IMG/VR virus record: IMGVR_UViG_3300021138_000004
DNA length: 64,000 nucleotides
Strand: one strand, 5' to 3'
Origin: a virus
Lineage: Duplodnaviria > Heunggongvirae > Uroviricota > Caudoviricetes
The stretch's first letter is position 1; every line of letters starts with the position of its first letter. The position numbers and the translations under genes are program-made. This document shows, piece by piece, positions 20,250-59,899 of the stretch. Below the pieces are notes generated by a model. That model worked only from the letters and a program-made list of their open reading frames with translations. It had not been told where the DNA came from and made no database searches.

Positions 20250-20326
20250 TGGTGGACCCTCTGGGACTCGAACCCAGGACAACCGCATTAAAAGTGCGAT
20301 GCTCTAACCTACTGAGCTAAGGGTCC
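20250..20326 (-). tRNA. tRNA-Lys (anticodon UUU), CCA encoded
   Basis: hand-folded cloverleaf: acceptor GGACCCT/AGGGTCC, D arm GCTC/GAGC, anticodon stem TCGCA/TGCGG with loop CTTTTAA, T arm CTGGG-TTCGAGT-CCCAG. Confidence 0.85.
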
Positions 20327-25549: not shown

Positions 25550-25636
25550 TTGGTGGGCGCGGTCGGACTCGAACCGACACGGGGGAACCCCGGGAGATTT
25601 TAAGTCTCCTGCGTATGACCAGTTTCGCCACGCGCC
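25550..25636 (-). tRNA. tRNA-Leu (anticodon UAA), type II long variable arm, CCA encoded
   Basis: hand-folded: acceptor GGGCGCG/CGCGCCC, anticodon stem GGAGA/TCTCC with loop CTTAAAA, variable arm GGGG-TTC-CCCC, T arm GTCGG-TTCGAGT-CCGAC. Confidence 0.85.
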
Positions 25637-26220
25637 CTTAATTTTTTCGCTCTTACATAGTTTCCGCCTTTTGGCGTAAGTCCTACTTTCTGTAATGCTT
25701 GACGAATATTAGCTGATTCTGTCAACGCTGTCAAGAGTTTTTCGTCATCGATTTTTACCTTTCCTGTGTTAATGTTCCTACCCCGCCAAGTTGGCGTTAA
25801 GGCGTGACAGTTACAACACAACAGTTTCAGGTTCGATTTGATATTATTCCTGTTATCTCCGTCAGTATGTTCGAGTTCTAACGGAATAGGTTGATGATTC
25901 CACTCGGTTAGATTGCACTCTTCACACTGATGTCCGCGTTCTTGAATAAGGAATTGTTTATGATTCCCGGTTCCGTTGTATTCAAACACCGTTTTTGGAA
26001 AAACATCTTTGTTCCATGCCATTTTCTTTTTTGAATCATCTGGCAGATCTCTATAAGCGTCACTACCGGATTTTCTTTTCCCAGTTTCGTAGACTAGTTT
26101 AGTAGAATCCGAATTGATTTTCTTGAGAACTGAACAACCCGAAGGCCGTTTAGAACAACAATTTTTTCCATTCTTTAATTGAAACTTAGCTTCTTTACCA
26201 CATCCATAATCGCAATACAT
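25600..26220 (-). CDS. HNH endonuclease (zinc-finger type)
   Basis: CCNCHALTPTWRGRN HNH core with N-terminal Cys cluster; AGGAG RBS; 3' end overlaps the tRNA-Leu 5' end. Confidence 0.75.
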   Translation of the reverse strand: MYCDYGCGKEAKFQLKNGKNCCSKRPSGCSVLKKINSDSTKLVYETGKRKSGSDAYRDLPDDSKKKMAWNKDVFPKTVFEYNGTGNHKQFLIQERGHQCEECNLTEWNHQPIPLELEHTDGDNRNNIKSNLKLLCCNCHALTPTWRGRNINTGKVKIDDEKLLTALTESANIRQALQKVGLTPKGGNYVRAKKLRARGETGHTQET

Positions 26221-46133: not shown

Positions 46134-46162
46134 TTGACATACACCATTACCTATTTTATAAT
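46134..46162 (+). promoter_or_regulatory. consensus sigma70 promoter TTGACA-17-TATAAT (divergent from 46090..46118)
   Basis: followed by AGGAGG RBS and ATG at 46183. Confidence 0.6.
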
Positions 46163-46590: not shown

Positions 46591-46751
46591 CGGTTAAAGA
46601 ACTCAAAGAATTGCTTGACGAATTGCCTAGCGATGCTAAAGTGTTTTATGAAGGCGGCGAATACAAGTATGACTATCGCAGCGTCTACAAGGTAGAATAC
46701 AACGAACATGCAACTTTGGCCTCGACCGGCCATTCAGTTTTTATTAGGTGA
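46587..46751 (+). CDS. small protein (GTG start overlapping the upstream TGA)
   Basis: ORF track 46527..46751 trimmed; GTGA junction. Confidence 0.45.
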   Translation: MTVKELKELLDELPSDAKVFYEGGEYKYDYRSVYKVEYNEHATLASTGHSVFIR

Positions 46752-47424
46752 CCGAGTTTCTTGGTTTACCTTTTTTAGAGTTGCTGATCTTTTGTTTGAC
46801 TTCTTCTGAGTGTCTGTAACCTGTTTTTAGTAGCGATTCACTTATTTTACGTTTTTGTTCTTCACTCATCGGTCCCCTGACTCTACCTTTTGCAGCATTG
46901 CCCATTTTTTGACGAGTTTCTTCACTTAATGTTCTACCTAGGCCACGGTTTTTACTGGCTTCACACATTTTCTGACGAGTTTCTTCACTAATTGGTGGCC
47001 TCTTTCTTCTTGATTCGGACATTTTCTGTTTTGTTTCCTCACTATGCGATTTACCGAGTCTAGACTTACTCATTTTACGGCGAGTTTCGTCAGTGTGGAT
47101 TATGGCACCTCGAAATTTTTTATCACCATTTGATCGGTTTAACCATCGATTATTAGTAGCCGCTTTGATTTTTTGTAAAAAATTTGATTCCCATTCTATG
47201 GCTGCTTCTTTGGTAGTAAATGTTTTTCGAACCCTGGCAACAAAAGTTTCTTTCCCGAATTCTTCGATAAGATTCTGTACTAATTTAGAAGATGAAAAAT
47301 AGGTGGTCCATAGATCCGATGGGTCACATCCGTCGGCATATCTGACACCATAGTAATGTTTGTCAGTCGGTGCATGATATAGGTGGTACGTGAAATAAAT
47401 AGACATGGCTGATAGTTCCTTCAT
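46744..47424 (-). CDS. GIY-YIG (Seg-like) homing endonuclease, close paralog of 28173..28808
   Basis: MSIYFTYHLYHAPTDKHYYGVRYADGC...; repeated SEETKQKMSESRR units. Confidence 0.8.
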   Translation of the reverse strand: MKELSAMSIYFTYHLYHAPTDKHYYGVRYADGCDPSDLWTTYFSSSKLVQNLIEEFGKETFVARVRKTFTTKEAAIEWESNFLQKIKAATNNRWLNRSNGDKKFRGAIIHTDETRRKMSKSRLGKSHSEETKQKMSESRRKRPPISEETRQKMCEASKNRGLGRTLSEETRQKMGNAAKGRVRGPMSEEQKRKISESLLKTGYRHSEEVKQKISNSKKGKPRNSVT

Positions 47425-47550
47425 AACTGTTAGAGTGAGTAGGAATTGGCGTTCCGTGACTCACACTTATTTATCTTCATAGTTGACACTCGCGGTGTTA
47501 TATGTTATTGTGTTGAATACAATTTAAACTACACTAATGGAGAAATCAAA

Positions 47551-47916
47551 TTGGGCATTTCAACTCACTACTACACCGTTTATGGTGTAAAGATTGACAA
47601 GTACGACGACGAGCTGAGCAACGTCCTTTACGATGAAGAGGATCGATACTCGCTGTTCGAAGATGGCACACTGCCCGAAGATTTTGGTTTAATCATGGAT
47701 GTCATGAGTGGCAGCTACATGGTCTTTGGTAAGATCCTGTTTGATTCGGGCGACCTGCGATATAATGATTTCAAGGACACGTTTGTTGAAGTGAGCCTCG
47801 ATAAGCTATATGATTACAAGCGCGATTATACTCGTAAGTTTTCTGAATATTTTACAGAATTTGATCATTACCTCGAGGAAGACTGGAAGTTAATGACTTT
47901 CATGCATCTCAGCTAA
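47551..47916 (+). CDS. hypothetical acidic protein (TTG start after GGAG RBS)
   Basis: ORF track 47446..47916; a TTGACA-17-TATTGT promoter lies downstream of the track ATG, so the later start is favoured. Confidence 0.45.
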   Translation: MGISTHYYTVYGVKIDKYDDELSNVLYDEEDRYSLFEDGTLPEDFGLIMDVMSGSYMVFGKILFDSGDLRYNDFKDTFVEVSLDKLYDYKRDYTRKFSEYFTEFDHYLEEDWKLMTFMHLS

Positions 47917-48197
47917 TGAAACTACCAGTTAACTATGATGAGCTGACTCCTAAGCAACGGCGAGAAGTTAGAGAATTCTATTGTAAGTGGCAAGAGTGGA
48001 AGTGCTGCCACTGTAACGCACACCTGCTAAAGGAACCCGCAGATTTTGTTCAAAAAATGAAGTTGGATCTAACTTTGTTTCCACAGGGTTTCTTAAGGCA
48101 TCCTATTCATTTGCACCACGATCATAAAACAGGCTTGACCATAGGCGCAGTACATGCTAAATGTAACGGTGTCCTTTGGCAATATCACGGAGAATAA
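47916..48197 (+). CDS. endonuclease VII-like / His-Me finger nuclease (93 aa)
   Basis: CCHCN ... HLHHDHKTG ... HAKCNG resembles the T4 endo VII HLDHDH zinc/HNH-like core. Confidence 0.45.
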   Translation: MKLPVNYDELTPKQRREVREFYCKWQEWKCCHCNAHLLKEPADFVQKMKLDLTLFPQGFLRHPIHLHHDHKTGLTIGAVHAKCNGVLWQYHGE

Positions 48198-48198
48198 C

Positions 48199-48483
48199 AT
48201 GAATCATGAAATTAGATCTGCGATGCAGCTTTTTGAAAACAAGCTGGCATCCTTTTGGCAGCTCGATGGTGAGATGCAGTGGTGTGAAGATGATCGCATC
48301 TACAAGATGGAATCTCGTCAACGAACTCTCGAAGCAGAAGTCAATAAGGCCCGCGATAATCTTATTGCTGCTATTGAACGTCTTGAGAAAAAGCCTGTTG
48401 AAGCAGACTGGGAAGATCGAATGGGCGGACAGTTTACGCAGGAAGAAATTGATGAAGCAAGACGAGGCGGCCACGGCTGGTAA
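48199..48483 (+). CDS. hypothetical coiled-coil protein (start MNHEIRS)
   Basis: ORF track 48154..48483 trimmed; GGAG RBS. Confidence 0.55.
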   Translation: MNHEIRSAMQLFENKLASFWQLDGEMQWCEDDRIYKMESRQRTLEAEVNKARDNLIAAIERLEKKPVEADWEDRMGGQFTQEEIDEARRGGHGW

Positions 48484-48492
48484 AAATACCTC

Positions 48493-48521
48493 TTGACTTG
48501 ATCAGTATTCTACACTAAAAT
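48493..48521 (+). promoter_or_regulatory. sigma70-like promoter TTGACT-17-TAAAAT for the membrane cluster
   Basis: plus strand; AAGGAG RBS follows. Confidence 0.55.
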
Positions 48522-48553
48522 AGCGACATACAAACACACACAAGGAGTTACAC

Positions 48554-49054
48554 ATGCGTAAAATTATTGCTCTTACCGCACTCACTGCTGCTACTTTTGC
48601 TCTTGCAGGTTGTGATGTTACGCCCAGTTCCGACGACATTCAGAATCACAATCAGGAACAGTTGAACAAGCAGGCTGTGCAGTCTGTGGGCATGCCAACA
48701 ATCACAAACTTCCAAGAAAAGCGTGTCTACAAGGACATCTTGGAACTGCGCGATACTGCTAACCTGCGCACTTATGCCTATATCACCGACCTTAACGGTC
48801 ACTTGCACAAGCGTTGCGACAGCATCGGCTATGGCATTCCTTATGCTACTCAGTATACTAGCCCACAGAAGATCGCTGATCACTATCAGGGCGGATATGC
48901 TATTCTTCCGCAGGCTGATCCTAACGGCCTGTACAGTCCTGCTAACGCAGAAGGCACTTGGGTGCTTTGCAAGGTTCCGAATAGTGACAAGGTCAGCCCT
49001 GTCTACATCGAAGACCGCGTGACGGTTTCCACTTTCCCCCTTGAAAATAACTAA
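48554..49054 (+). CDS. lipoprotein (signal peptide plus LAGC lipobox), tandem paralog 1
   Basis: MRKIIALTALTAATFALAGCD; similar to the next gene over its whole length. Confidence 0.7.
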   Translation: MRKIIALTALTAATFALAGCDVTPSSDDIQNHNQEQLNKQAVQSVGMPTITNFQEKRVYKDILELRDTANLRTYAYITDLNGHLHKRCDSIGYGIPYATQYTSPQKIADHYQGGYAILPQADPNGLYSPANAEGTWVLCKVPNSDKVSPVYIEDRVTVSTFPLENN

Positions 49055-49066
49055 GGAGTTGACGCA

Positions 49067-49525
49067 ATGAAGCGTATTGCACTCGTAGCTGCATTGGCCT
49101 GCACTGTAGCACTGGCTGGATGTGACGGCCAGGATCTTCGTACCAGTGATCAGATACAGTATCAGCAGCAGGAAGTTATGCTCAAGCAGGCAACTAAGGA
49201 ACTTGGTATGCCAGCTATCACTAACTTTGCAGAAAAGCGCATGATGAAGGACATCCTGGAACTGCGCGACAAGAATGTGCGAACCTATACCTATCTTGTA
49301 GGCATGAACAACCAGCTTACCAAGCTCTGTGATTCAGTGGGCTACGGTCTGCCTTACGCCACTCAGTATACTAGTCCAAATCAAGCTGATCCCAACGGAC
49401 TGTATAGTCCTGCTAGTGCAGACGGCACTTGGGTTGCTTGTAAGGTTCCTGGTAAGGACAATATTTCGCCCACGTATATCGAACCGCGTATTATCGTTTC
49501 GACCTTTCCTTTGATTAAGGAATAA
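49067..49525 (+). CDS. lipoprotein (LAGC lipobox), tandem paralog 2
   Basis: MKRIALVAALACTVALAGCD; shared GMPxITNFxEKR...DILELRD...YGxPYATQYTSP...DPNGLYSPA...GTWVxCKVP...VSTFPL. Confidence 0.7.
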   Translation: MKRIALVAALACTVALAGCDGQDLRTSDQIQYQQQEVMLKQATKELGMPAITNFAEKRMMKDILELRDKNVRTYTYLVGMNNQLTKLCDSVGYGLPYATQYTSPNQADPNGLYSPASADGTWVACKVPGKDNISPTYIEPRIIVSTFPLIKE

Positions 49526-49528
49526 ACA

Positions 49529-49795
49529 ATGAAATACGTATTTGCTACATTGGTGTCAATTTTTGTGTTGATGATGGCCTATGGCTTGTCTGCTATTAAT
49601 CAAGTCGACGAATTCAGTCATTATATCAATCAAGACATTGACAGGATTGGTCACCATAATCTAAAAGTGATCCAAGAAGATAAAGGCGAAAAAGAATTGC
49701 CTTATCCTAATGTAGACGAAAGTTACTATAATCTCAAGCATTCATGGCCTTGGGATCGAAATTTTGCTGCCATGGTTGTTTATGAAAAGGAATAA
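49529..49795 (+). CDS. secreted or membrane protein (N-terminal hydrophobic segment)
   Basis: ORF track. Confidence 0.55.
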   Translation: MKYVFATLVSIFVLMMAYGLSAINQVDEFSHYINQDIDRIGHHNLKVIQEDKGEKELPYPNVDESYYNLKHSWPWDRNFAAMVVYEKE

Positions 49796-49801
49796 TGACA
49801 A

Positions 49802-50128
49802 ATGAAAGATTTTTTTGCAGTCGTACTTACCCTTTGCCTCGGCGTTGCCGCTGTTGTCGGTCTTAGCTTTGGCAGCTACAAGATGTACGAGTATTTCGCA
49901 CCACGCTACACAGCAGTGGATGCAAAGGTGTTCAAGGAAAGCGTTCAATACAATGATGGTATGATCCGCGATCTTAGTGAACTTCAGCAGCAGTATGAAA
50001 CTTCTGATGCTGCAACCAAGGCTACTTTGAAGCCTATCATCATTCATCGTTTTGAAGTGTATGATGAAAATCGTTTGCCCGCAGATATGCGTCAGTTTTA
50101 CGATTCACTGAAGTCTAACGTAAATTAA
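49802..50128 (+). CDS. membrane-anchored protein (N-terminal TM helix)
   Basis: ORF track. Confidence 0.55.
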   Translation: MKDFFAVVLTLCLGVAAVVGLSFGSYKMYEYFAPRYTAVDAKVFKESVQYNDGMIRDLSELQQQYETSDAATKATLKPIIIHRFEVYDENRLPADMRQFYDSLKSNVN

Positions 50129-50153
50129 GTTCAATTTAACAAGAGGTGTTTAA

Positions 50154-51569
50154 ATGATTATTATTGCTGCTATTGCTCTTGCAGCGTTGCTAGTGGTCGG
50201 TGCTATGTTCACTGCACTCAGCTGGCGCCGTGTGGTTCCGACCAACATGGTACACATTGTACAGAGCGCCAAGAAGACTATTTCGTTTGGTTCTAGTCAA
50301 GCCGCAGGCAACACTTACTACGAGTTTCCAAGTTGGATTCCAGTAATCGGTGTTACTGTTAGTAAGTTTCCTGAGTCGGTGTTTAGTATTTCGCTTAAGG
50401 ACTACGAAGCCTACGATATTGGACGTTTGCCTTTCAAGGTTGATGTTCGTGCGTTCTTCCGTATCTCAGACAGTCAGATTGCTTCACGTCGTGTGTCAGA
50501 CTTTACACAGTTGCAGGATCAGTTGCTAGGTGTGCTACAGGGTGCAGTGCGACGTATCCTTGCTACCAACACGCTGGAACATACTATGCAAGATCGTTCT
50601 TCTCTGGGCCAACAGTTTACTGAAGAAGTTGACCACGGTCTTACTGAATGGGGCGTAAGCACTGTTAAGATGATCGAGTTCATGGACATTCGAGACCACG
50701 ACGGTTCGCAGGTTATTCAGAACATGATGGCCAAGGAAAAGTCGCGTATTGAAAAGGAATCGCGTATCGCTGTTGCTGCCAACATTCAGGAAGCAGAAAC
50801 CAAGGAAATCGAAGCCAAGCGACAGGTTGCACTTAGCCGAACTGAAGCTGAACAGCAGGTCGGTATCCGAGAAGCTGAAAAGGCCAAGACTATTGGTATT
50901 GCTCAGGAAAAGAGCAGCCAGGAAGTTCAGTCAGAAGCTAAGACCACTGCTGAACGTCAGATGGAAGTGCAGAAGGTCAACGAAGTTAAGGCTGCAGAAA
51001 TTGCCCGAGATGTTGCTGTTGTTAAGGCACAGCAGGATCAGCAGGTCAAGGTTGTTGCTGCACAGGCTGAACGTGACGCTGCTACCCACATTGCAGATGG
51101 TAAGTTGAATGCTACCAAGAAGGAATCCGAGGGTGTTAAGGCACTTGGCGAAGCTAAGGCTGATGCTGAGTCTAAGATGCTGCTTGCTCCGGTTAACGCA
51201 CAGTTGACGCTGGCCAAGGAAATCGGTGACAACGAAGGTTATCAGGCTTACTTGATTAAGGTTCGTAACATCGAAGCTTCGCAGGCTGTGGGTGTTGAAA
51301 TGGCTGGTGCTATTAAGGCAGCTGACCTTAAGATTATCGCTAACAGCGGTGATGTACAGGGCGGCATTGGAAACCTTGCAGATGTATTCACTCCTAAGGG
51401 TGGTACTTCGATCGGTGGCATGTTGACTGCACTGAGTCAGACTCCAGAAGGTGCTGCTCTAGTTGATGGTGTAGTAGCTAAGTTGGGTGCAACTCCTCCG
51501 GGTGCAACTGCCGCTGCTGCTAAGGCTTATGGACGTGGCAAGGCCAAGGACGCTAACATCGTTAACTGA
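50154..51569 (+). CDS. SPFH/band-7 (flotillin-like) protein with N-terminal TM helix and long coiled-coil
   Basis: N-terminal TM, SPFH-like core, then EA-rich heptad region (ESRIAVAANIQEAETKEIEAKRQ...) typical of flotillin/YqiK. Confidence 0.7.
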   Translation: MIIIAAIALAALLVVGAMFTALSWRRVVPTNMVHIVQSAKKTISFGSSQAAGNTYYEFPSWIPVIGVTVSKFPESVFSISLKDYEAYDIGRLPFKVDVRAFFRISDSQIASRRVSDFTQLQDQLLGVLQGAVRRILATNTLEHTMQDRSSLGQQFTEEVDHGLTEWGVSTVKMIEFMDIRDHDGSQVIQNMMAKEKSRIEKESRIAVAANIQEAETKEIEAKRQVALSRTEAEQQVGIREAEKAKTIGIAQEKSSQEVQSEAKTTAERQMEVQKVNEVKAAEIARDVAVVKAQQDQQVKVVAAQAERDAATHIADGKLNATKKESEGVKALGEAKADAESKMLLAPVNAQLTLAKEIGDNEGYQAYLIKVRNIEASQAVGVEMAGAIKAADLKIIANSGDVQGGIGNLADVFTPKGGTSIGGMLTALSQTPEGAALVDGVVAKLGATPPGATAAAAKAYGRGKAKDANIVN

Positions 51570-51586
51570 TTTAGCGATTAGTAAAC

Positions 51587-51623
51587 AAAAAGGCCCTAGT
51601 GTAAAAACTAGGGCCTTTTATTG
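51587..51623. terminator. bidirectional rho-independent terminator
   Basis: aaaaAGGCCCTAG-tgtaaaaa-CTAGGGCCTtttatt. Confidence 0.7.
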
Positions 51624-52445: not shown

Positions 52446-53072
52446 ATGTCTATGATACGCAGTGCAAAATATGCGCTAATAGCAATATCGGTAATGGCAT
52501 TCCAAAGCGTAAGTCATGCCGAGACCCCGGATATAGCGGGTCAAAAAATAGCCATTGTTGAATCAACGAAAGTTGCTCAACAGGCAGCAAAAATAGTTTT
52601 GCCCAAGGGCACAATCCAAGAGCAAAGCGCAATAACAAAAGTAAATTTAAAGGAAATACAGTGTTTAGCGAAGAATATATTTTACGAGTCTGCTAGCGAA
52701 CCCGAAGAAGGCAAGATAGCAGTAGGAGTAGCAACACTGAACCGCACGGGAGATCGACGATTTTCTTCAACAGTATGCGGAGTAATAAATCAGCGTAGCT
52801 CTGGTCGGTACAAGGGAAATTGTCAATTCTCTTGGCGTTGCAGCAATGTGAAGCCGCCTAGTGCAACTGATAAACGATGGGTAAAGTGTCAGGAAATTGC
52901 AAGCAATCTACTAACTCAGCCCAGCGTCTATGAGGCGTTGACGAAAAAATATGCGAATGTTCTTTATTTTCATGCCACGTTTGTGCGCCCTTTATGGGCA
53001 AGGCAGAAAGTACAAGTCGCTCGTGTAGGTAATCAGATGTTTTACAAAGATCGTAAAATAACGTATATCTGA
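52446..53072 (+). CDS. secreted cell-wall hydrolase, SleB/Hydrolase_2-like
   Basis: signal peptide; CLAKNIFYESASEPEEGKIAVGVATLNR matches the SleB-family signature. Confidence 0.7.
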   Translation: MSMIRSAKYALIAISVMAFQSVSHAETPDIAGQKIAIVESTKVAQQAAKIVLPKGTIQEQSAITKVNLKEIQCLAKNIFYESASEPEEGKIAVGVATLNRTGDRRFSSTVCGVINQRSSGRYKGNCQFSWRCSNVKPPSATDKRWVKCQEIASNLLTQPSVYEALTKKYANVLYFHATFVRPLWARQKVQVARVGNQMFYKDRKITYI

Positions 53073-53313: not shown

Positions 53314-53556
53314 ATGTTATACCGCATACTAACAACTCAAACAATTAAATTGAATCCTAAAGAAACTCGTAATTACGATGCCGGCTCTGGTGTCATAATG
53401 ATACCTGAAGTTGATTCAAAAATATACGTACATTGGCTCAACGGTGATCGTCTCCGTTCGACTCTCACTCTATCACAAAGCTCGGAAATACGCGAGCAGG
53501 TTAAATTAATAAACGGACTTGATACTCCGGCAATTATTAATGTTATTAAGATTTGA
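53314..53556 (+). CDS. hypothetical protein (80 aa)
   Basis: ORF track. Confidence 0.5.
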   Translation: MLYRILTTQTIKLNPKETRNYDAGSGVIMIPEVDSKIYVHWLNGDRLRSTLTLSQSSEIREQVKLINGLDTPAIINVIKI

Positions 53557-53581
53557 CATCACCAGGAACTCCTGCTATAAT
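53553..53581 (+). promoter_or_regulatory. consensus sigma70 promoter TTGACA-17-TATAAT upstream of the ligase
   Basis: plus strand. Confidence 0.6.
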
Positions 53582-56495: not shown

Positions 56496-57008
56496 TTAAC
56501 CCAAGTAAACAGCCCATTCAGGATATTTTAGGTCGATATTCATAGCTTTGCGCTTTTCGACCAATTCCCAATAACTAGGCTTATGTGGAACCTTTGCAGG
56601 CTTAATACGCTTGTCGTTGCCCTTGCGACCATTACAAGGCGAACACGCTGTTGCAGAGTTCTCAAATGTACTTTTACCGCCGTGACTGATTGGCAGCACG
56701 TGGTCTAGTGTTGCGGTCTTTTTAGTTACTGCAACACCGCAATATTGACATTTGAATTCATCTCGAAGATAAACGTTCATCTTCGAGAATCGAACATGCG
56801 CTTTCTTCTTCTGAAATTCCTTAAGCATAATAATGGAAGGAACGCGGGTTTCCCAGGTAGCAGAACGTACAATCCAGTCATTATGCCATTCTAGAACATT
56901 AACTTTGTCTAGAACTAGGTAACGAATAGCTTCCTGCCATGTGATTGCACTTAATGGCAACATGGAAACAGGGCTTCCGTCCGTGTTTAGCAATAACGTA
57001 TCGATCAC
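56496..57008 (-). CDS. HNH endonuclease
   Basis: CQYCGVAVTKKTATLDHVLPISHGGKSTFENSATACSPCNGRKGND. Confidence 0.8.
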   Translation of the reverse strand: MIDTLLLNTDGSPVSMLPLSAITWQEAIRYLVLDKVNVLEWHNDWIVRSATWETRVPSIIMLKEFQKKKAHVRFSKMNVYLRDEFKCQYCGVAVTKKTATLDHVLPISHGGKSTFENSATACSPCNGRKGNDKRIKPAKVPHKPSYWELVEKRKAMNIDLKYPEWAVYLG

Positions 57009-57044
57009 ACTTCTCCTTGATAAATATTGTTAAGGATCAATTTA

Positions 57045-57665
57045 ATGTATTTACCTAACAAATATACAACATGGTATTATGCTATAATAACACACGCACT
57101 GACTCGTGTCAATGAAAACAGATATGTAGAGAAACATCATATTATACCAATCTCATTGGGTGGTACAAATGATGATGGAAATCTGGTAAAACTTACCGCC
57201 AGAGAACATTTTATATGCCATAGATTGTTAATAAAAATGACTACCGGAATTAATAAACAAAAAATGTGCCATGCTGCATGGGCAATGGCAACTCTTAAAA
57301 ATCCGAAGCAGGAAAGGATAAAAATAACATCAAAAGTATATGAACATTTACGAAGCAATTTATCATTAACAGACGATCACAAAAGAAAAATATCAGAAGC
57401 AAGTCGAGGAATTCCTAGAGGACCGTTTTCGGAAGAACATAAAAGAAACATGCGTAAACCGAAAAGTGAAGAACATAAACGAGCACTTTCGATAGCAAGG
57501 TCTGGTAAAACTTATGGTTATAAACATTCGGAAGAAACGAAAAGAAAAATGTCGGCATCTTCAACTGGAAGATTTCAAGGATCAATGATATGTGAACATT
57601 GCGGAAAAGAAACATCTATTGGAAATCATAATCGTTGGCACGGCATGAAATGTAAGCACCGATAA
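57045..57665 (+). CDS. HNH homing endonuclease with NUMOD3-type repeats
   Basis: EKHHIIPISLGGTNDDGNLVKLTAREHFICHRLL; SEEHKRNMRKPK repeats; ATG chosen over track TTG. Confidence 0.8.
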   Translation: MYLPNKYTTWYYAIITHALTRVNENRYVEKHHIIPISLGGTNDDGNLVKLTAREHFICHRLLIKMTTGINKQKMCHAAWAMATLKNPKQERIKITSKVYEHLRSNLSLTDDHKRKISEASRGIPRGPFSEEHKRNMRKPKSEEHKRALSIARSGKTYGYKHSEETKRKMSASSTGRFQGSMICEHCGKETSIGNHNRWHGMKCKHR

Positions 57666-57925: not shown

Positions 57926-58001
57926 TTATTACTAAATACCCAAAAGGGGATATTAAAACCATGACGGTTATTCTCCTGTAATAAAAAGAGAGGTAATGAC
58001 A

Positions 58002-58454
58002 ATGGATTATAATATTGAAGTCGAAAAGACTAAGATGCAACTTTGGGTATTAAAGCTCATGGCTTTGGCTCTAGGTTCTATCATGGTAGCAACGGTGCTG
58101 GTAATGCTCATAGGTTTGTTTACTCCGAATACAGTTATTGATAACAGAGAAATTTTCAAGATCCTTGGTCCTGCATTTAGCATGGTCGTTGGTGCGTTTG
58201 TAGGTTCTTTTGCTACAATGATGGGTATGAAGACTGAACCGCTTAACCCGAATGCAAAACTACAGGCAGTCAATGACGACCCAACTCCGCCAGCTGCACC
58301 TGCTGTTGCTGCACCGACTGCGGTCGATACACCTGCTGCTCCTGCTGTTGCTGCGCCTGCTGCTGCACCTGCTGATAGCGATGACGATGACGATGACGAC
58401 GATGATGACAAGAGTGATACACCTGCTGCACCAGCAGATCACGGTCCATTCTAA
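58002..58454 (+). CDS. holin-like membrane protein (2 TM) with Pro/Ala-rich and poly-Asp tail
   Basis: TM segments LMALALGSIMVATVLVMLIGLF and FSMVVGAFVGSFATMMG; immediately upstream of the endolysin. Confidence 0.55.
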   Translation: MDYNIEVEKTKMQLWVLKLMALALGSIMVATVLVMLIGLFTPNTVIDNREIFKILGPAFSMVVGAFVGSFATMMGMKTEPLNPNAKLQAVNDDPTPPAAPAVAAPTAVDTPAAPAVAAPAAAPADSDDDDDDDDDDKSDTPAAPADHGPF

Positions 58455-58465
58455 GGAGATATGAA

Positions 58466-59647
58466 ATGCAAGTAACACCACATTTTTCACTACAAGAATT
58501 GACTGTTTCTAATGCTGCTCAGAAACTGCACTTGGCAAATAATCCTCCAGCAGGAACACTGTCAAATATGCAGAATCTATGCAATGGCATTTTAGAAAAA
58601 GTCCGAGCACATTATGGAAAGCCTGTTTCGATACTTTCTTGCTACCGTGCTCCAGATGTAAACAAAGCAGTTGGCGGCTCTGCTGACTCTCAACACGTAA
58701 CTGGCGAAGCTGCTGACTTCATTGTCAAAGGCGTTGCTAACAAAGACGTTGCTGAATGGATCATCGAAAACCTAGAGTATGATCAGGTTATCCTTGAAGC
58801 CTACAGCGACGGACAAAATTGGGTACACGCTTCACTCAGTGCCAGCGGACACAACCGTAAGGAAAAGTTTGTTGTCACTAAGGCGGCTGGAGAAGATTCG
58901 ACTAAGGTTGCAGTCACTGACTTTAACACTGTGCCTGCTGCTGTTGCACCTGTTGTAGCTGCTGCTGCAACTGCTCCTGCAGCGTCTCCTAACCCTTCTG
59001 CTCCTGCTAAGGCACTAACAGGTCTTGCTGCTACAAACGCACTTGCTGCGCTACAAGCTAAATGCGGAATCACAGTTAATGGTACATGGGATGCAACAAC
59101 ATTTAAAGCTGCTATGAAATACTATGGATTGAGCGCAACACGCGCTGCCCACTTTTTTGGCCAATGCAATCACGAAACTGGTAACTTTCATACATTTACT
59201 GAAAACCTTAACTATTCGGACAAGGGATTGGTTGGTATTTTCCATAAGTACTTTCCTACGATTGGGTCAACGGCTGGTTACGCTCGTAACCCGCAGAAGA
59301 TTGCAAACAAGGTCTACTCAAACCGAATGGGAAATGGCCCTGAAGCTTCGGGTGATGGCTTTAAGTTTTGTGGTAGAGGTGCGGTCCAACTCACGGGTCG
59401 TTCCAACTATCAGGCTTTTGCTGACTACATCAAAAGACCAGACGTAATGACTAATCCGCAGATTGTTGCCACTGAATTGGCATTCGAATCTGCACTATTC
59501 TTCTTTGAACGCAATCACCTTTGGGCAATTGCTGACAAAGGATTAGATACCGCAACTATTACTGCGGTTACTAAGAGAGTAAACGGCGGAACAATCGGTC
59601 TACCTGATCGTATTGCTAAAACTAAGTTGTTTGCCTCTTGGGCATGA
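58466..59647 (+). CDS. bifunctional endolysin: N-terminal M15-family peptidase plus C-terminal GH19/lysozyme-like domain
   Basis: SCYRAPDVNKAVGGSADSQHVTGEAADF (M15 SxHxxGxAxD signature); Ala/Pro linker; C-terminal AHFFGQCNHETGNF...CGRGAVQLTGRSNY (GH19-like). Confidence 0.75.
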   Translation: MQVTPHFSLQELTVSNAAQKLHLANNPPAGTLSNMQNLCNGILEKVRAHYGKPVSILSCYRAPDVNKAVGGSADSQHVTGEAADFIVKGVANKDVAEWIIENLEYDQVILEAYSDGQNWVHASLSASGHNRKEKFVVTKAAGEDSTKVAVTDFNTVPAAVAPVVAAAATAPAASPNPSAPAKALTGLAATNALAALQAKCGITVNGTWDATTFKAAMKYYGLSATRAAHFFGQCNHETGNFHTFTENLNYSDKGLVGIFHKYFPTIGSTAGYARNPQKIANKVYSNRMGNGPEASGDGFKFCGRGAVQLTGRSNYQAFADYIKRPDVMTNPQIVATELAFESALFFFERNHLWAIADKGLDTATITAVTKRVNGGTIGLPDRIAKTKLFASWA

Positions 59648-59662
59648 GAGGAGAATACTAAG

Positions 59663-59899
59663 ATGAACTTCAGTGCAATTGGAAATTACATCCATCAAAT
59701 TCTAGCTGAAAGCAACGGTACGCCAAGTTCGAAGCGTGTAATCGTAATGATCTGCACAATTCTAATGGCTGTGGGTTTTATCGGCAACGAGTTTTATGGA
59801 AAGACTATTGACCCGAACATCTTTAATTCAATTATGTTTGTTGTAATTGGTGGTATGGGGATCACCGGCGCAGAGAAATTTGCACCAAAAGGTTCCTGA
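59663..59899 (+). CDS. small membrane protein (holin/spanin-like, 2 TM)
   Basis: ORF track; GGAG RBS; follows the endolysin. Confidence 0.55.
   Translation: MNFSAIGNYIHQILAESNGTPSSKRVIVMICTILMAVGFIGNEFYGKTIDPNIFNSIMFVVIGGMGITGAEKFAPKGS

What the first reader, a model, noticed from the sequence alone, without database searches (positions are those of the whole stretch)
48493..51623. Promoter-to-terminator membrane cluster: two tandem paralogous lipoproteins, two membrane proteins and an SPFH/flotillin-like protein
A self-contained transcription unit has a TTGACT-17-TAAAAT promoter at 48493 and a strong bidirectional terminator at 51587. It encodes two adjacent paralogous lipoproteins with LAGC lipoboxes, a signal/TM protein, a TM-anchored protein and a 471-aa flotillin-like SPFH protein with an N-terminal TM helix and a long EA-rich coiled coil. 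Phage lipoproteins are classic superinfection-exclusion or receptor-masking factors (T5 Llp, T4 Imm/Sp style). A phage-encoded flotillin homologue that could organise membrane microdomains is uncommon. The GC content here is visibly higher than in the flanking DNA.
Basis: partly seen in the sequence, partly recalled or inferred. Interest (0 to 1): 0.7.

Follow-up and report, generated by a model that had tools for sequence, protein, structure and literature searches.

The report
Phage membrane operon: lipoprotein pair plus flotillin
A large phage carries a real, early-type operon that joins two separate, widespread but uncharacterised phage membrane modules: a membrane protein that almost always travels with a lipoprotein, and a flotillin-like scaffold; none has a known function.

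Summary
All five ORFs, both LAGC lipoboxes, the 59%-identical paralogues, the SPFH domain (Pfam Band_7, E 3.7e-13), the promoter and the -24 kcal/mol bidirectional terminator are present at the stated coordinates. The interpretation needs revising. The cluster is not one conserved unit.

ORF4 (bitopic membrane protein) and the lipoprotein family form a near-obligate two-gene module. They were adjacent in 135 of 137 seeded loci, usually in the order orf4 then lpp, with a median gap of 11 nt. The module occurs in jumbo, T4-like, T5-like, N4-like and Clostridium phages (841 clusters at 50% identity) and has no Pfam, NCBIfam, PADLOC, PDB or fold match.

The flotillin-type protein is a separate, already-annotated phage gene: 51 GenBank phage records and more than 1000 metagenomic homologues. 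It usually occurs without the pair; the two are joined only in the window's own clade. ORF3 is a low-GC, lineage-specific passenger.

Occurrence in phages of single-membrane hosts and a frequent Asp/Glu at +2 argue against outer-membrane receptor masking (Llp/Cor) and against spanins. The most likely role is early action at the outer face of the cytoplasmic membrane (exclusion or envelope protection), with a cytoplasmic flotillin cage alongside. Function is inferred, not shown.

The parts
48493..48521 (+). sigma-70-type promoter TTGACT-17-TAAAAT
   Evidence: 10/12 consensus match. A TTGACN-17-TAnnnT site is conserved at the same position in L026, L014 and L025.
48554..49054 (+). lpp1: lipoprotein of the 'QADPNG' family (phrog_24725), 166 aa, lipobox LAGC, Cys20, Asp at +2
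   Evidence: dN/dS 0.06 against the L014 orthologue.
49067..49525 (+). lpp2: paralogue of lpp1 (59% identity), 152 aa, lipobox LAGC, Cys19, Asp at +2
   Evidence: dN/dS 0.02.
49529..49795 (+). ORF3: 88-aa protein with an N-terminal signal or anchor; low GC (0.356); lineage-specific passenger
   Evidence: No match in the phage collection. Present in L026 (94% identity). Distant homologues in L040, L045 and L051 lie several kb from the pair. L014 has an unrelated 88-aa gene in this position.
49802..50128 (+). ORF4: bitopic membrane protein (TM helix about residues 2-32 plus a small helical bundle); near-obligate partner of the lipoprotein family
   Evidence: AF2 model pLDDT 85. Adjacent to the lpp gene in 135 of 137 seeded loci. 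dN/dS 0.15.
50154..51569 (+). flotillin-type SPFH protein, 471 aa: N-terminal TM helix, Band_7 domain, Ala/Glu/Lys/Gln-rich coiled coil, conserved C-terminal region
   Evidence: Pfam Band_7 E 3.7e-13. PDB: QmcA 1.9e-10, stomatins, flotillin-1 7.7e-5 over residues 101-393. 50-60% identical to proteins of Brevundimonas, Ralstonia and Vibrio phages.
51588..51619 (.). bidirectional intrinsic terminator hairpin (13-bp stem) flanked by an A-run and a T-run
   Evidence: -24.4 kcal/mol, z -5.6. G+C-rich hairpins followed by T runs can also be read after flot in most, though not all, of the relatives inspected by eye.

Best explanation
SHOWN. The operon is a lineage-specific fusion of two independent phage membrane modules, plus one passenger gene.

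Module 1 is ORF4 plus the lipoproteins. ORF4 has an N-terminal anchor helix and a compact helical domain. The lipoproteins are an exported domain tethered to the membrane, with invariant GYGxPYATQYTxP and QADPNGLYS loops. The two families are adjacent in nearly every locus examined, across five or more unrelated phage groups and in hosts with one or two membranes. The lipoprotein gene is duplicated here (two copies) and triplicated in a relative.

Module 2 is a flotillin-type SPFH protein. Its positive charges follow the TM helix, which places the bulk of the protein in the cytoplasm.

INFERRED. Transcription is from a host-type (sigma-70) promoter and therefore early. ORF4 inserts N-in/C-out like a signal anchor, so its helical domain and the lipid-anchored lipoproteins meet on the outer face of the cytoplasmic membrane. 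There they act on a component that is conserved between bacteria with one and two membranes. The effect is to change the envelope of the infected cell, most plausibly by blocking genome entry or envelope damage from later-arriving phages, and/or by keeping the membrane intact until programmed lysis. Like other SPFH proteins, the flotillin assembles into a cage on the cytoplasmic face that stabilises or compartmentalises a patch of the same membrane. Whether it works with module 1 is unproven.

The confidence figure refers to the inferred mechanism. The anatomical and evolutionary part is about 0.9.
For: Pairing: 79 of 80 viral loci and 56 of 57 genome loci have ORF4 next to lpp. In 130 distinct loci the order is orf4>lpp(>lpp) in 114, with a median gap of 11 nt and 28 overlaps. 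No other neighbour is conserved.

Breadth: S-SRM01 (T4-like), Cody (T5-like), PG11 (N4-like), phi3626 (Clostridium) and jumbo-phage contigs. 841 clusters at 50% identity, with no domain fusions.

Export and tethering: lipobox in 114 of 120 members, otherwise signal peptides, TM anchors or prepilin-like leaders. Two invariant Cys residues in the mature domain would fit a disulfide.

Early context: a conserved sigma-70-type promoter, and neighbours that are nucleotide-metabolism or replication genes.

Purifying selection: dN/dS 0.02-0.19.

Flotillin: SPFH membership and near-colinear alignment with flotillin-1. Charge distribution around the TM helix.

Modules are separable: about 20 flotillin loci lack the pair, including the syntenic L119. 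No lpp-seeded locus outside the window's clade has a flotillin within 8 kb.
Against: There is no functional data for any of these families. The lipoprotein model is poor (pLDDT 67) and has no fold match. ORF4's fold is a generic helix bundle. ORF4's orientation is not resolved by charge statistics. The very strong conservation of the lipoprotein is atypical of known exclusion proteins, which track fast-evolving phage targets. Flotillin adjacency occurs in one clade only, so any coupling between the modules may be accidental. PADLOC shows no similarity to known defence proteins.
Confidence: 0.35

Rival explanations
1. First reader's model. The lipoproteins are outer-membrane receptor-masking factors of the T5 Llp / Cor type, and the flotillin organises microdomains for them, so the whole cluster is one exclusion system.
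For: The lipoboxes are real. The genes are co-transcribed with a flotillin in this clade. Lipoprotein gene duplication could widen specificity.
Against: The family occurs in phages and prophages of Clostridium, Romboutsia and Acetobacterium, which have no outer membrane. Asp or Glu at +2 in 65 of 114 members is the inner-membrane retention signal in enterobacteria (the rule itself is established knowledge and host-dependent). Sequences are 35-40% identical across hosts whose receptors differ. There is no similarity to Llp or Cor. The flotillin is on the cytoplasmic side and is usually encoded without the pair.
Confidence: 0.08
2. ORF4 and the lipoprotein form a two-component spanin (i-spanin plus o-spanin) that fuses the inner and outer membranes at lysis.
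For: The family-wide layout is a type-II-like membrane protein followed immediately, and often overlapped, by a lipoprotein gene. That is the classic Rz/Rz1 arrangement (established knowledge). No obvious spanin lies next to the candidate lysis cassette at 57996-59899.
Against: The pair is present in phages of single-membrane Firmicutes. It is never in a lysis cassette; it sits among early or replication genes. The mature lipoprotein of about 145 aa is highly conserved, has predicted helices and strands and two conserved Cys, and shows dN/dS 0.02-0.06. As recalled from the literature and not tested here, o-spanins are short, proline-rich and fast-evolving. ORF4's soluble part is about 75 aa folded back into a bundle, which by my own estimate (not measured) is too short to span a periplasm. 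The +2 Asp/Glu argues against outer-membrane sorting. In the window the gene order is reversed and there are two lipoprotein copies.
Confidence: 0.07
3. Module 1 targets the cell wall or its lipid-linked precursors. It would bind or modify peptidoglycan, lipid II or a synthase or hydrolase, in order to stop host growth or division or to tune lysis timing, not to exclude other phages.
For: Conservation across hosts with one and two membranes implies a universally conserved extracytoplasmic target. The invariant loops are rich in aromatic, Asn, Asp, Gln, Pro and Gly residues, a composition common in glycan-binding sites (inference). A secreted SleB-type cell-wall hydrolase lies just downstream in the window and its relatives.
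Against: No similarity to any known wall-binding or wall-acting domain. No catalytic motif is recognisable. The nearby hydrolase is kept with the flotillin, not with the pair (L119).
Confidence: 0.2
4. The flotillin is the functionally important gene and acts alone. It would form a phage-made SPFH cage that reinforces or repairs the host inner membrane, or sequesters a host membrane protease such as FtsH, to prevent premature lysis or membrane-depolarising abortive infection. The ORF4-lpp module next to it is an unrelated insertion.
For: The flotillin is conserved at this locus without the pair in the syntenic L119. It is widespread as a stand-alone gene, usually followed by what reads as its own terminator hairpin. 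It is under purifying selection. SPFH proteins form membrane cages, some of which enclose FtsH (PDB hits to QmcA, stomatin, flotillin-1; the cage biology is established knowledge).
Against: No NfeD-type partner or protease gene is linked to it. No experimental data exist. In the window's clade, orf4 and flot are separated by only 25 nt and share a promoter and a terminator. The direct junction looks ancestral, because the sequence flanking the L025 insertion is duplicated.
Confidence: 0.25

Closest known systems
Bacterial and eukaryotic flotillins and other SPFH scaffolds (YqiK/FloT, flotillin-1/2, QmcA, stomatin)
   Same: N-terminal membrane anchor, Band_7/SPFH domain, long Ala/Glu-rich coiled coil and a conserved C-terminal region. 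The family profile aligns with flotillin-1 residues 101-393.
   Different: It is phage-encoded. It scores far below the FloT equivalog cut-off (25 vs 700 bits). The only Pfam family it matches at E<=1 is Band_7. It has no NfeD partner gene. By sequence, its SPFH domain is nearer to QmcA and stomatin than to flotillin-1.
Phage flotillin genes already deposited (Brevundimonas phages Domovoi, Kabachok and Papperlapapp; Ralstonia RP13; Vibrio Thalassavirus such as Cody gp117)
   Same: 50-60% identical over about 90% of the length, with the same architecture. By eye, a hairpin followed by a T run follows the gene in Domovoi, less clearly in RP13 and Cody.
   Different: In those phages the gene is not next to ORF4 or the lipoprotein. 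Cody encodes the pair 23 kb away from its flotillin.
Membrane-tethered superinfection-exclusion proteins (S. thermophilus TP-J34 Ltp lipoprotein, lactococcal Sie2009, T4 Imm and Sp)
   Same: Small phage-encoded proteins anchored in the cytoplasmic membrane with an extracytoplasmic domain, and not part of the lysis or structural modules (recalled knowledge). Here the genes have an early-type promoter and an early-gene context.
   Different: No sequence or fold similarity. This is a two-protein module, far more conserved and more widely distributed than known Sie proteins.
Two-component spanins (lambda Rz/Rz1, T4 PseT.3/PseT.2)
   Same: A gene for a membrane protein with an N-terminal TM helix, followed tightly by a lipoprotein gene.
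   Different: Found in phages of single-membrane hosts. Not in lysis cassettes. The lipoprotein is large and strongly conserved. Asp/Glu at +2 is common.
T5 Llp / Cor receptor-blocking lipoproteins
   Same: Phage-encoded lipoproteins with a lipobox.
   Different: Llp and Cor are small outer-membrane proteins specific for one receptor (recalled knowledge). This family spans hosts from cyanobacteria to Clostridium, is likely retained at the cytoplasmic membrane, and shows no similarity to them.

Membership tests
SPFH / Band 7 superfamily | SPFH domain recognised by the curated profile (PF01145) | tested here: met
   50.3 bits vs cut-off 23.6, E 3.7e-13. All 36 family members match. PDB QmcA 1.9e-10, plus stomatins.
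SPFH / Band 7 superfamily | N-terminal membrane anchor followed by a coiled coil after the SPFH domain | tested here: met
   A hydrophobic helix at residues 1-25 followed by WRR. Residues 205-345 are 56% E+A+K+Q.
SPFH / Band 7 superfamily | Assembly into a large ring or cage on the membrane | not testable with these tools
   Needs cryo-EM or native mass measurement.
Flotillin subfamily (FloT/YqiK/flotillin-1) | Meets the FloT equivalog model | tested here: not met
   NF058507 scores 25.4 bits against a cut-off of 700.
Flotillin subfamily (FloT/YqiK/flotillin-1) | Colinear similarity to a solved flotillin beyond the SPFH domain | tested here: met
   Profile positions 125-408 align with flotillin-1 residues 101-393, E 7.7e-5. 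This is modest support.
Flotillin subfamily (FloT/YqiK/flotillin-1) | Adjacent NfeD-family partner gene, as with yqiJ-yqiK and yuaF-floT (recalled knowledge) | tested here: not met
   ORF4 and ORF3 have no NfeD hit. ORF4 is modelled as all-helical. The upstream genes in Domovoi and RP13 are unrelated to ORF4.
Bacterial lipoproteins (signal peptidase II substrates) | Positively charged N-terminus, hydrophobic core, and a lipobox [LVI][ASTVI][GAS]C | tested here: met
   lpp1 MRK...LAGC20, lpp2 MKR...LAGC19. 114 of 120 homologues have a lipobox.
Bacterial lipoproteins (signal peptidase II substrates) | Actual lipid modification and cleavage | not testable with these tools
   Needs globomycin sensitivity or palmitate labelling.
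Two-component spanins | Membrane protein gene followed by (or containing) a lipoprotein gene | tested here: inconclusive
   Met family-wide: orf4>lpp in 114 of 130 loci. In the window the order is reversed and ORF3 intervenes.
Two-component spanins | Restricted to phages of double-membrane hosts and located in the lysis cassette | tested here: not met
   Present in phi3626 and in Clostridium, Romboutsia and Acetobacterium contigs. Neighbours are early or replication genes.
T5 Llp / Cor / T4 Imm / T4 Sp exclusion proteins | Sequence or fold similarity to the named proteins | tested here: not met
Known anti-phage defence systems (PADLOC) | Match to any PADLOC model | tested here: not met
   0 families for all five proteins.
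phrog_24725 (unknown function) | Profile match | tested here: met
   lpp1 E 2.5e-29, lpp2 E 8.2e-25. The family has no annotation.

The most novel reading that the evidence does not exclude
The ORF4-lipoprotein pair is a previously unrecognised, near-universal two-component phage device. It would act on the outer face of the cytoplasmic membrane against a target shared by bacteria with one and two membranes, for example by sealing the envelope against further genome injection or against lysis from without. In the window's clade it would be physically coupled, through ORF4's transmembrane helix, to a phage-built flotillin cage on the cytoplasmic face. That would give a trans-membrane platform assembled entirely from viral proteins.
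Probability: 0.15. Interest if true: 0.75.

Novelty: new variant of a known kind. Interest (0 to 1): 0.45.

Why it matters
Phage-encoded SPFH and flotillin proteins are annotated repeatedly, yet no function has been shown; one genome paper states that the reason for their presence 'remains unclear' (PMC13239085). The more useful result here is the ORF4-lipoprotein pair. It forms 841 clusters at 50% identity, is tightly linked in nearly every locus, and is shared by jumbo, T4-like, T5-like, N4-like and Clostridium phages, but it has no entry in Pfam, NCBIfam or PADLOC and no fold assignment. A conserved early membrane module of this breadth probably reflects a general step in how phages handle the host envelope. 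It is directly testable, because cultured systems carry it: Vibrio phage Cody gp163/gp164 (and gp117 flotillin) on V. harveyi BAA-1116, phi3626 gp44/gp45 on C. perfringens, and S-SRM01 on Synechococcus.

Tried and rejected
1. ORF4 as an NfeD-like flotillin partner. Rejected: no NfeD hit, all-helical model, and ORF4 travels with the lipoprotein, not with the flotillin.

2. The roughly 100-aa genes upstream of flot in Domovoi and RP13 as ORF4 homologues. Rejected: no similarity.

3. The S-SRM01 'membrane protease subunit' as recurrent evidence for a link between the pair and SPFH proteins. It has no Pfam Band_7 hit, and hhalign against the flotillin profile gives probability 0.6%. It has only borderline hits to the prohibitin-2 and HflC coiled-coil regions (E 1.3e-3 and 0.4). 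It belongs to a separate 62-record phage family and is adjacent to the pair only in S-SRM01. I keep it as a single weak hint.

5. Domain fusions in 149 diverse family representatives: none. The extensions are low-complexity Pro/Ala tails.

6. A further conserved neighbour of the pair: none found. The next largest cluster is an antisense artefact.

7. Genome-level co-occurrence of flot and the pair could not be measured.

8. ORF4 topology from the positive-inside rule is ambiguous: 1.15 vs 1.41 K+R.

9. PADLOC and NCBIfam scans gave no lead.

10. Literature searches on phage SPFH, flotillin and band-7 found only annotation-level mentions.


Full report
**1. What is in the sequence**

Five + strand ORFs lie between 48554 and 51569, each preceded by a Shine-Dalgarno sequence:
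- lpp1, 166 aa
- lpp2, 152 aa
- ORF3, 88 aa
- ORF4, 108 aa
- a 471-aa protein

lpp1 and lpp2 are 59% identical (E 4e-66). Both have a canonical signal peptide ending in LAGC, followed by Asp. ORF3, ORF4 and the 471-aa protein each start with one hydrophobic helix. The 471-aa protein matches Pfam Band_7/SPFH above the curated threshold (50.3 vs 23.6 bits). It also matches solved SPFH proteins: QmcA and stomatins. A profile of its family aligns almost colinearly with human flotillin-1 residues 101-393 (E 7.7e-5). Residues 205-345 are 56% Glu, Ala, Lys and Gln.

It is not a FloT orthologue. It scores 25 bits against a 700-bit cut-off, and Band_7 is the only Pfam family it matches at E<=1. 'Flotillin-type SPFH protein' is therefore the accurate label.

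**2. Transcription signals**

TTGACT-17-TAAAAT at 48493 is only a 10/12 match, in a region where such matches occur at about the chance rate (20 found vs 16.2 expected). However, relatives with diverged sequence keep a TTGACN-17-TAnnnT site at the same place upstream of the first lipoprotein gene (L026, L014, L025). I therefore accept it as a promoter.

The hairpin at 51588-51619 folds at -24.4 kcal/mol (z -5.6). It is flanked by A and T runs and faces convergent minus-strand ORFs, so 'bidirectional terminator' is justified. Reading the sequences by eye, a G+C-rich hairpin followed by a T run also comes after flot in most of the relatives shown, though not in all.

No + strand terminator-like site separates the cluster from the + strand genes at 47446-48483, so read-through from upstream is possible.

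GC is 0.468 against about 0.40 on both sides. That is unexceptional for this window: the mean is 0.443, and 28% of 3-kb windows are at least as high.

**3. The genome**

The window has no near DNA match among 50,697 phage records. It does carry typical large-phage content: two tRNAs, homing endonucleases, a DNA ligase and cell-wall hydrolases. Its 952-aa AAA protein matches only the Ralstonia jumbo phage RsoM2USA, at 30%. The closest metagenomic copies of ORF4 and the flotillin lie on contigs of about 357 kb. It is therefore most likely an uncultured jumbo phage.

**4. The cluster splits into modules**

The lipoprotein family (phrog_24725, unknown function) has more than 2100 members at 90% clustering and 841 clusters at 50%. 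Wherever I looked, an ORF4 homologue sits beside it:
- Synechococcus phage S-SRM01, Clostridium phage phi3626 (gp44/gp45), Vibrio phage Cody (gp163/gp164) and Vibrio phage PG11
- jumbo-phage contigs
- 79 of 80 IMG/VR loci; the single exception has the lipoprotein gene 128 nt from the contig end
- 56 of 57 loci in genome assemblies

Over 130 distinct loci the order is orf4>lpp, or orf4>lpp>lpp, in 114. The median gap is 11 nt, and 28 junctions overlap. No third gene is conserved around the pair, and no domain fusions exist.

The window's clade has the minority order, lpp(s) then orf4. It has two lipoprotein copies here and three in L014.

ORF3 is not part of the module. It has much lower GC (0.356). 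It has no match in the phage collection. Its distant homologues lie several kb from the pair in other contigs. L014 has an unrelated 88-aa gene at that position.

**5. The flotillin is a separate gene**

Proteins 50-60% identical to it occur in 51 phage records: Brevundimonas jumbo phages (annotated 'flotillin'), Ralstonia RP13, Vibrio Thalassavirus, and Xanthomonas and Erwinia phages. More than 1000 metagenomic proteins also match.

In those phages the neighbouring genes are unrelated to ORF4 or the lipoprotein. Of about 20 further flotillin-seeded loci, only those from the window's own clade carry the pair. L119 shares the window's downstream synteny (flotillin, small minus-strand genes, Hydrolase_2, ligase) but lacks the pair upstream. 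Conversely, no lipoprotein-seeded locus outside this clade has a flotillin within 8 kb.

Within the clade, direct orf4-flot adjacency looks ancestral. In L025 and L118, and in L026, minus-strand genes are inserted between orf4 and flot: a 306-aa gene in L025/L118 and a 229-aa GIY-YIG-like gene in L026. In L025 the roughly 35-nt junction is duplicated on either side of the insert.

One other juxtaposition with an SPFH-related gene exists. In S-SRM01 the pair is followed by a 135-aa protein whose best PDB hits are the coiled-coil regions of prohibitin-2 (E 1.3e-3) and HflC (E 0.4). That protein belongs to a different 62-record family and is not next to the pair anywhere else. Gene-neighbourhood support for a functional link between the pair and SPFH proteins is therefore weak.

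**6. What the proteins look like**

The lipoprotein model is weak (pLDDT 67). It shows two helices and a small beta-sheet core. Confidence is lowest in the best-conserved loops, GYGxPYATQYTxP and QADPNGLYS. No significant fold match was found, and profile searches of PDB, Pfam, NCBIfam and PADLOC are empty.

All four conserved genes are under strong purifying selection against L014. dN/dS is 0.06, 0.02, 0.15 and 0.19, though dS is near saturation.

**7. Location inference**

Almost every family member carries an export or anchor signal. This is a lipobox in about two-thirds to 95%, depending on the sample; the rest have signal peptides, TM anchors or prepilin-like leaders. The residue after the lipid-modified Cys is Asp or Glu in 65 of 114 members. 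In enterobacteria that residue retains a lipoprotein in the inner membrane (established knowledge, host-dependent).

The family also occurs in phages and prophages of Clostridium, Romboutsia and Acetobacterium, which have no outer membrane. Together this places the domain on the outer face of the cytoplasmic membrane.

ORF4's very short, Lys-containing N-terminus followed by a hydrophobic helix resembles an uncleaved signal anchor (N-in, C-out), but the charge statistics are ambiguous. The flotillin has no charge before its helix and WRR after it, so its bulk should be cytoplasmic.

**8. Mechanism**

The pair sits among early, nucleotide-metabolism or replication genes in every context examined. 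In the window's clade it is preceded by a host-type promoter.

The best-supported reading is an early-expressed complex of ORF4 and the lipoprotein(s) on the outer face of the cytoplasmic membrane. It would act on a target conserved across bacteria, to protect or close the infected cell's envelope, with the flotillin forming an SPFH cage on the inner face. This is inference, and I give it 0.35.

Rivals:
- A cell-wall-directed function: 0.2.
- The flotillin acting alone as a membrane stabiliser, with the pair an unrelated insertion: 0.25. This overlaps with the main reading.
- Spanins: 0.07.
- Llp/Cor-type receptor masking: 0.08.

The last two are disfavoured by the occurrence in phages of single-membrane hosts, the +2 residue, the genomic context and the strong conservation.

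**9. Novelty and literature**

Phage SPFH genes are mentioned only as annotations. Two jumbo-phage overviews do not mention them. I found no description of the ORF4-lipoprotein pair.

The flotillin is a new member of an already-annotated phage gene family. The pair is a sequence-known (PHROG) but unnamed and uncharacterised two-gene module. Their fusion into one operon is specific to this clade. Overall this is of moderate interest. The anatomy is solid, the function is open, and cultured phages are available for testing.

Noticed in passing
window 57996-59899: Candidate lysis cassette: a 152-aa membrane protein with an Ala/Pro-rich region and a poly-Asp tail, a 393-aa two-domain endolysin (Peptidase_M15_3 plus Glyco_hydro_19), and a 78-aa ORF with two hydrophobic segments that looks holin-like. 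No obvious spanin pair follows.
   Followed up: partly
window 52446-53072: Secreted SleB-type cell-wall hydrolase (Pfam Hydrolase_2) with a signal peptide. It is conserved downstream of the flotillin gene in relatives L014, L118 and L119, followed by an ATP-dependent DNA ligase.
   Followed up: partly
window 46134-46162 and 53553-53581: Two perfect sigma-70 consensus promoters (TTGACA-17-TATAAT, 12/12), which suggests this phage relies on host RNA polymerase for some genes.
   Followed up: no
L026 3706-4395 (-); L025 6659-8000; L118 2905-3825 (-): The orf4-flot junction is a repeated insertion site for minus-strand homing-endonuclease-like genes (229-aa GIY-YIG-like in L026, 306-aa in L025/L118). 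In L025 the roughly 35-nt junction is duplicated. In L026 the C-terminal half of ORF4 is replaced by divergent sequence.
   Followed up: partly
window 46744-47424 (-), 56496-57008 (-), 57027-57665 (+): Several homing-endonuclease-type genes lie close to the cluster. 46744-47424 matches NUMOD3 in Pfam. The other two are read from their sequences only, HNH-like and NUMOD-like, without a domain search.
   Followed up: no
L004 4486-4893 (Synechococcus phage S-SRM01): A 135-aa protein consisting of a TM helix plus a coiled coil, annotated 'membrane protease subunit'. It resembles only the C-terminal coiled-coil part of prohibitin-2 and HflC (E 1.3e-3 and 0.4). It defines a separate family present in 62 phage records, including S-PM2, Klebsiella jumbo phages, Erwinia PhiEaH1 and Salmonella SPN1S.
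   Followed up: partly
proteins P0324 and P0405 (lipoprotein family representatives): Two family members replace the lipoprotein signal with an N-terminus that looks like a prepilin or pseudopilin leader.
   Followed up: no
L121, L137, L151, L160 and other genome-contig loci: Many carriers of the pair in genome assemblies are contigs of 270-460 kb binned as Patescibacteria/CPR or other MAGs. These look like mis-binned large phage genomes.
   Followed up: no
L008 255-1402; seven loci in the neighbour clustering: ClpP-like protease genes lie within a few kb of the ORF4-lipoprotein pair in several jumbo-phage contigs. One has a faint NfeD1b_N hit.
   Followed up: no
window 20250-20326 (-) and 25551-25637 (-): tRNA-Lys(ttt) and tRNA-Leu(taa) genes.
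   Followed up: no
L008 4388-4660, L010 4418-4636, L030 6317-6574: A small conserved membrane protein (72-93 aa, motif [11 protein letters not shown]...AIPGIK) lies just upstream of ORF4 in nine loci.
   Followed up: no
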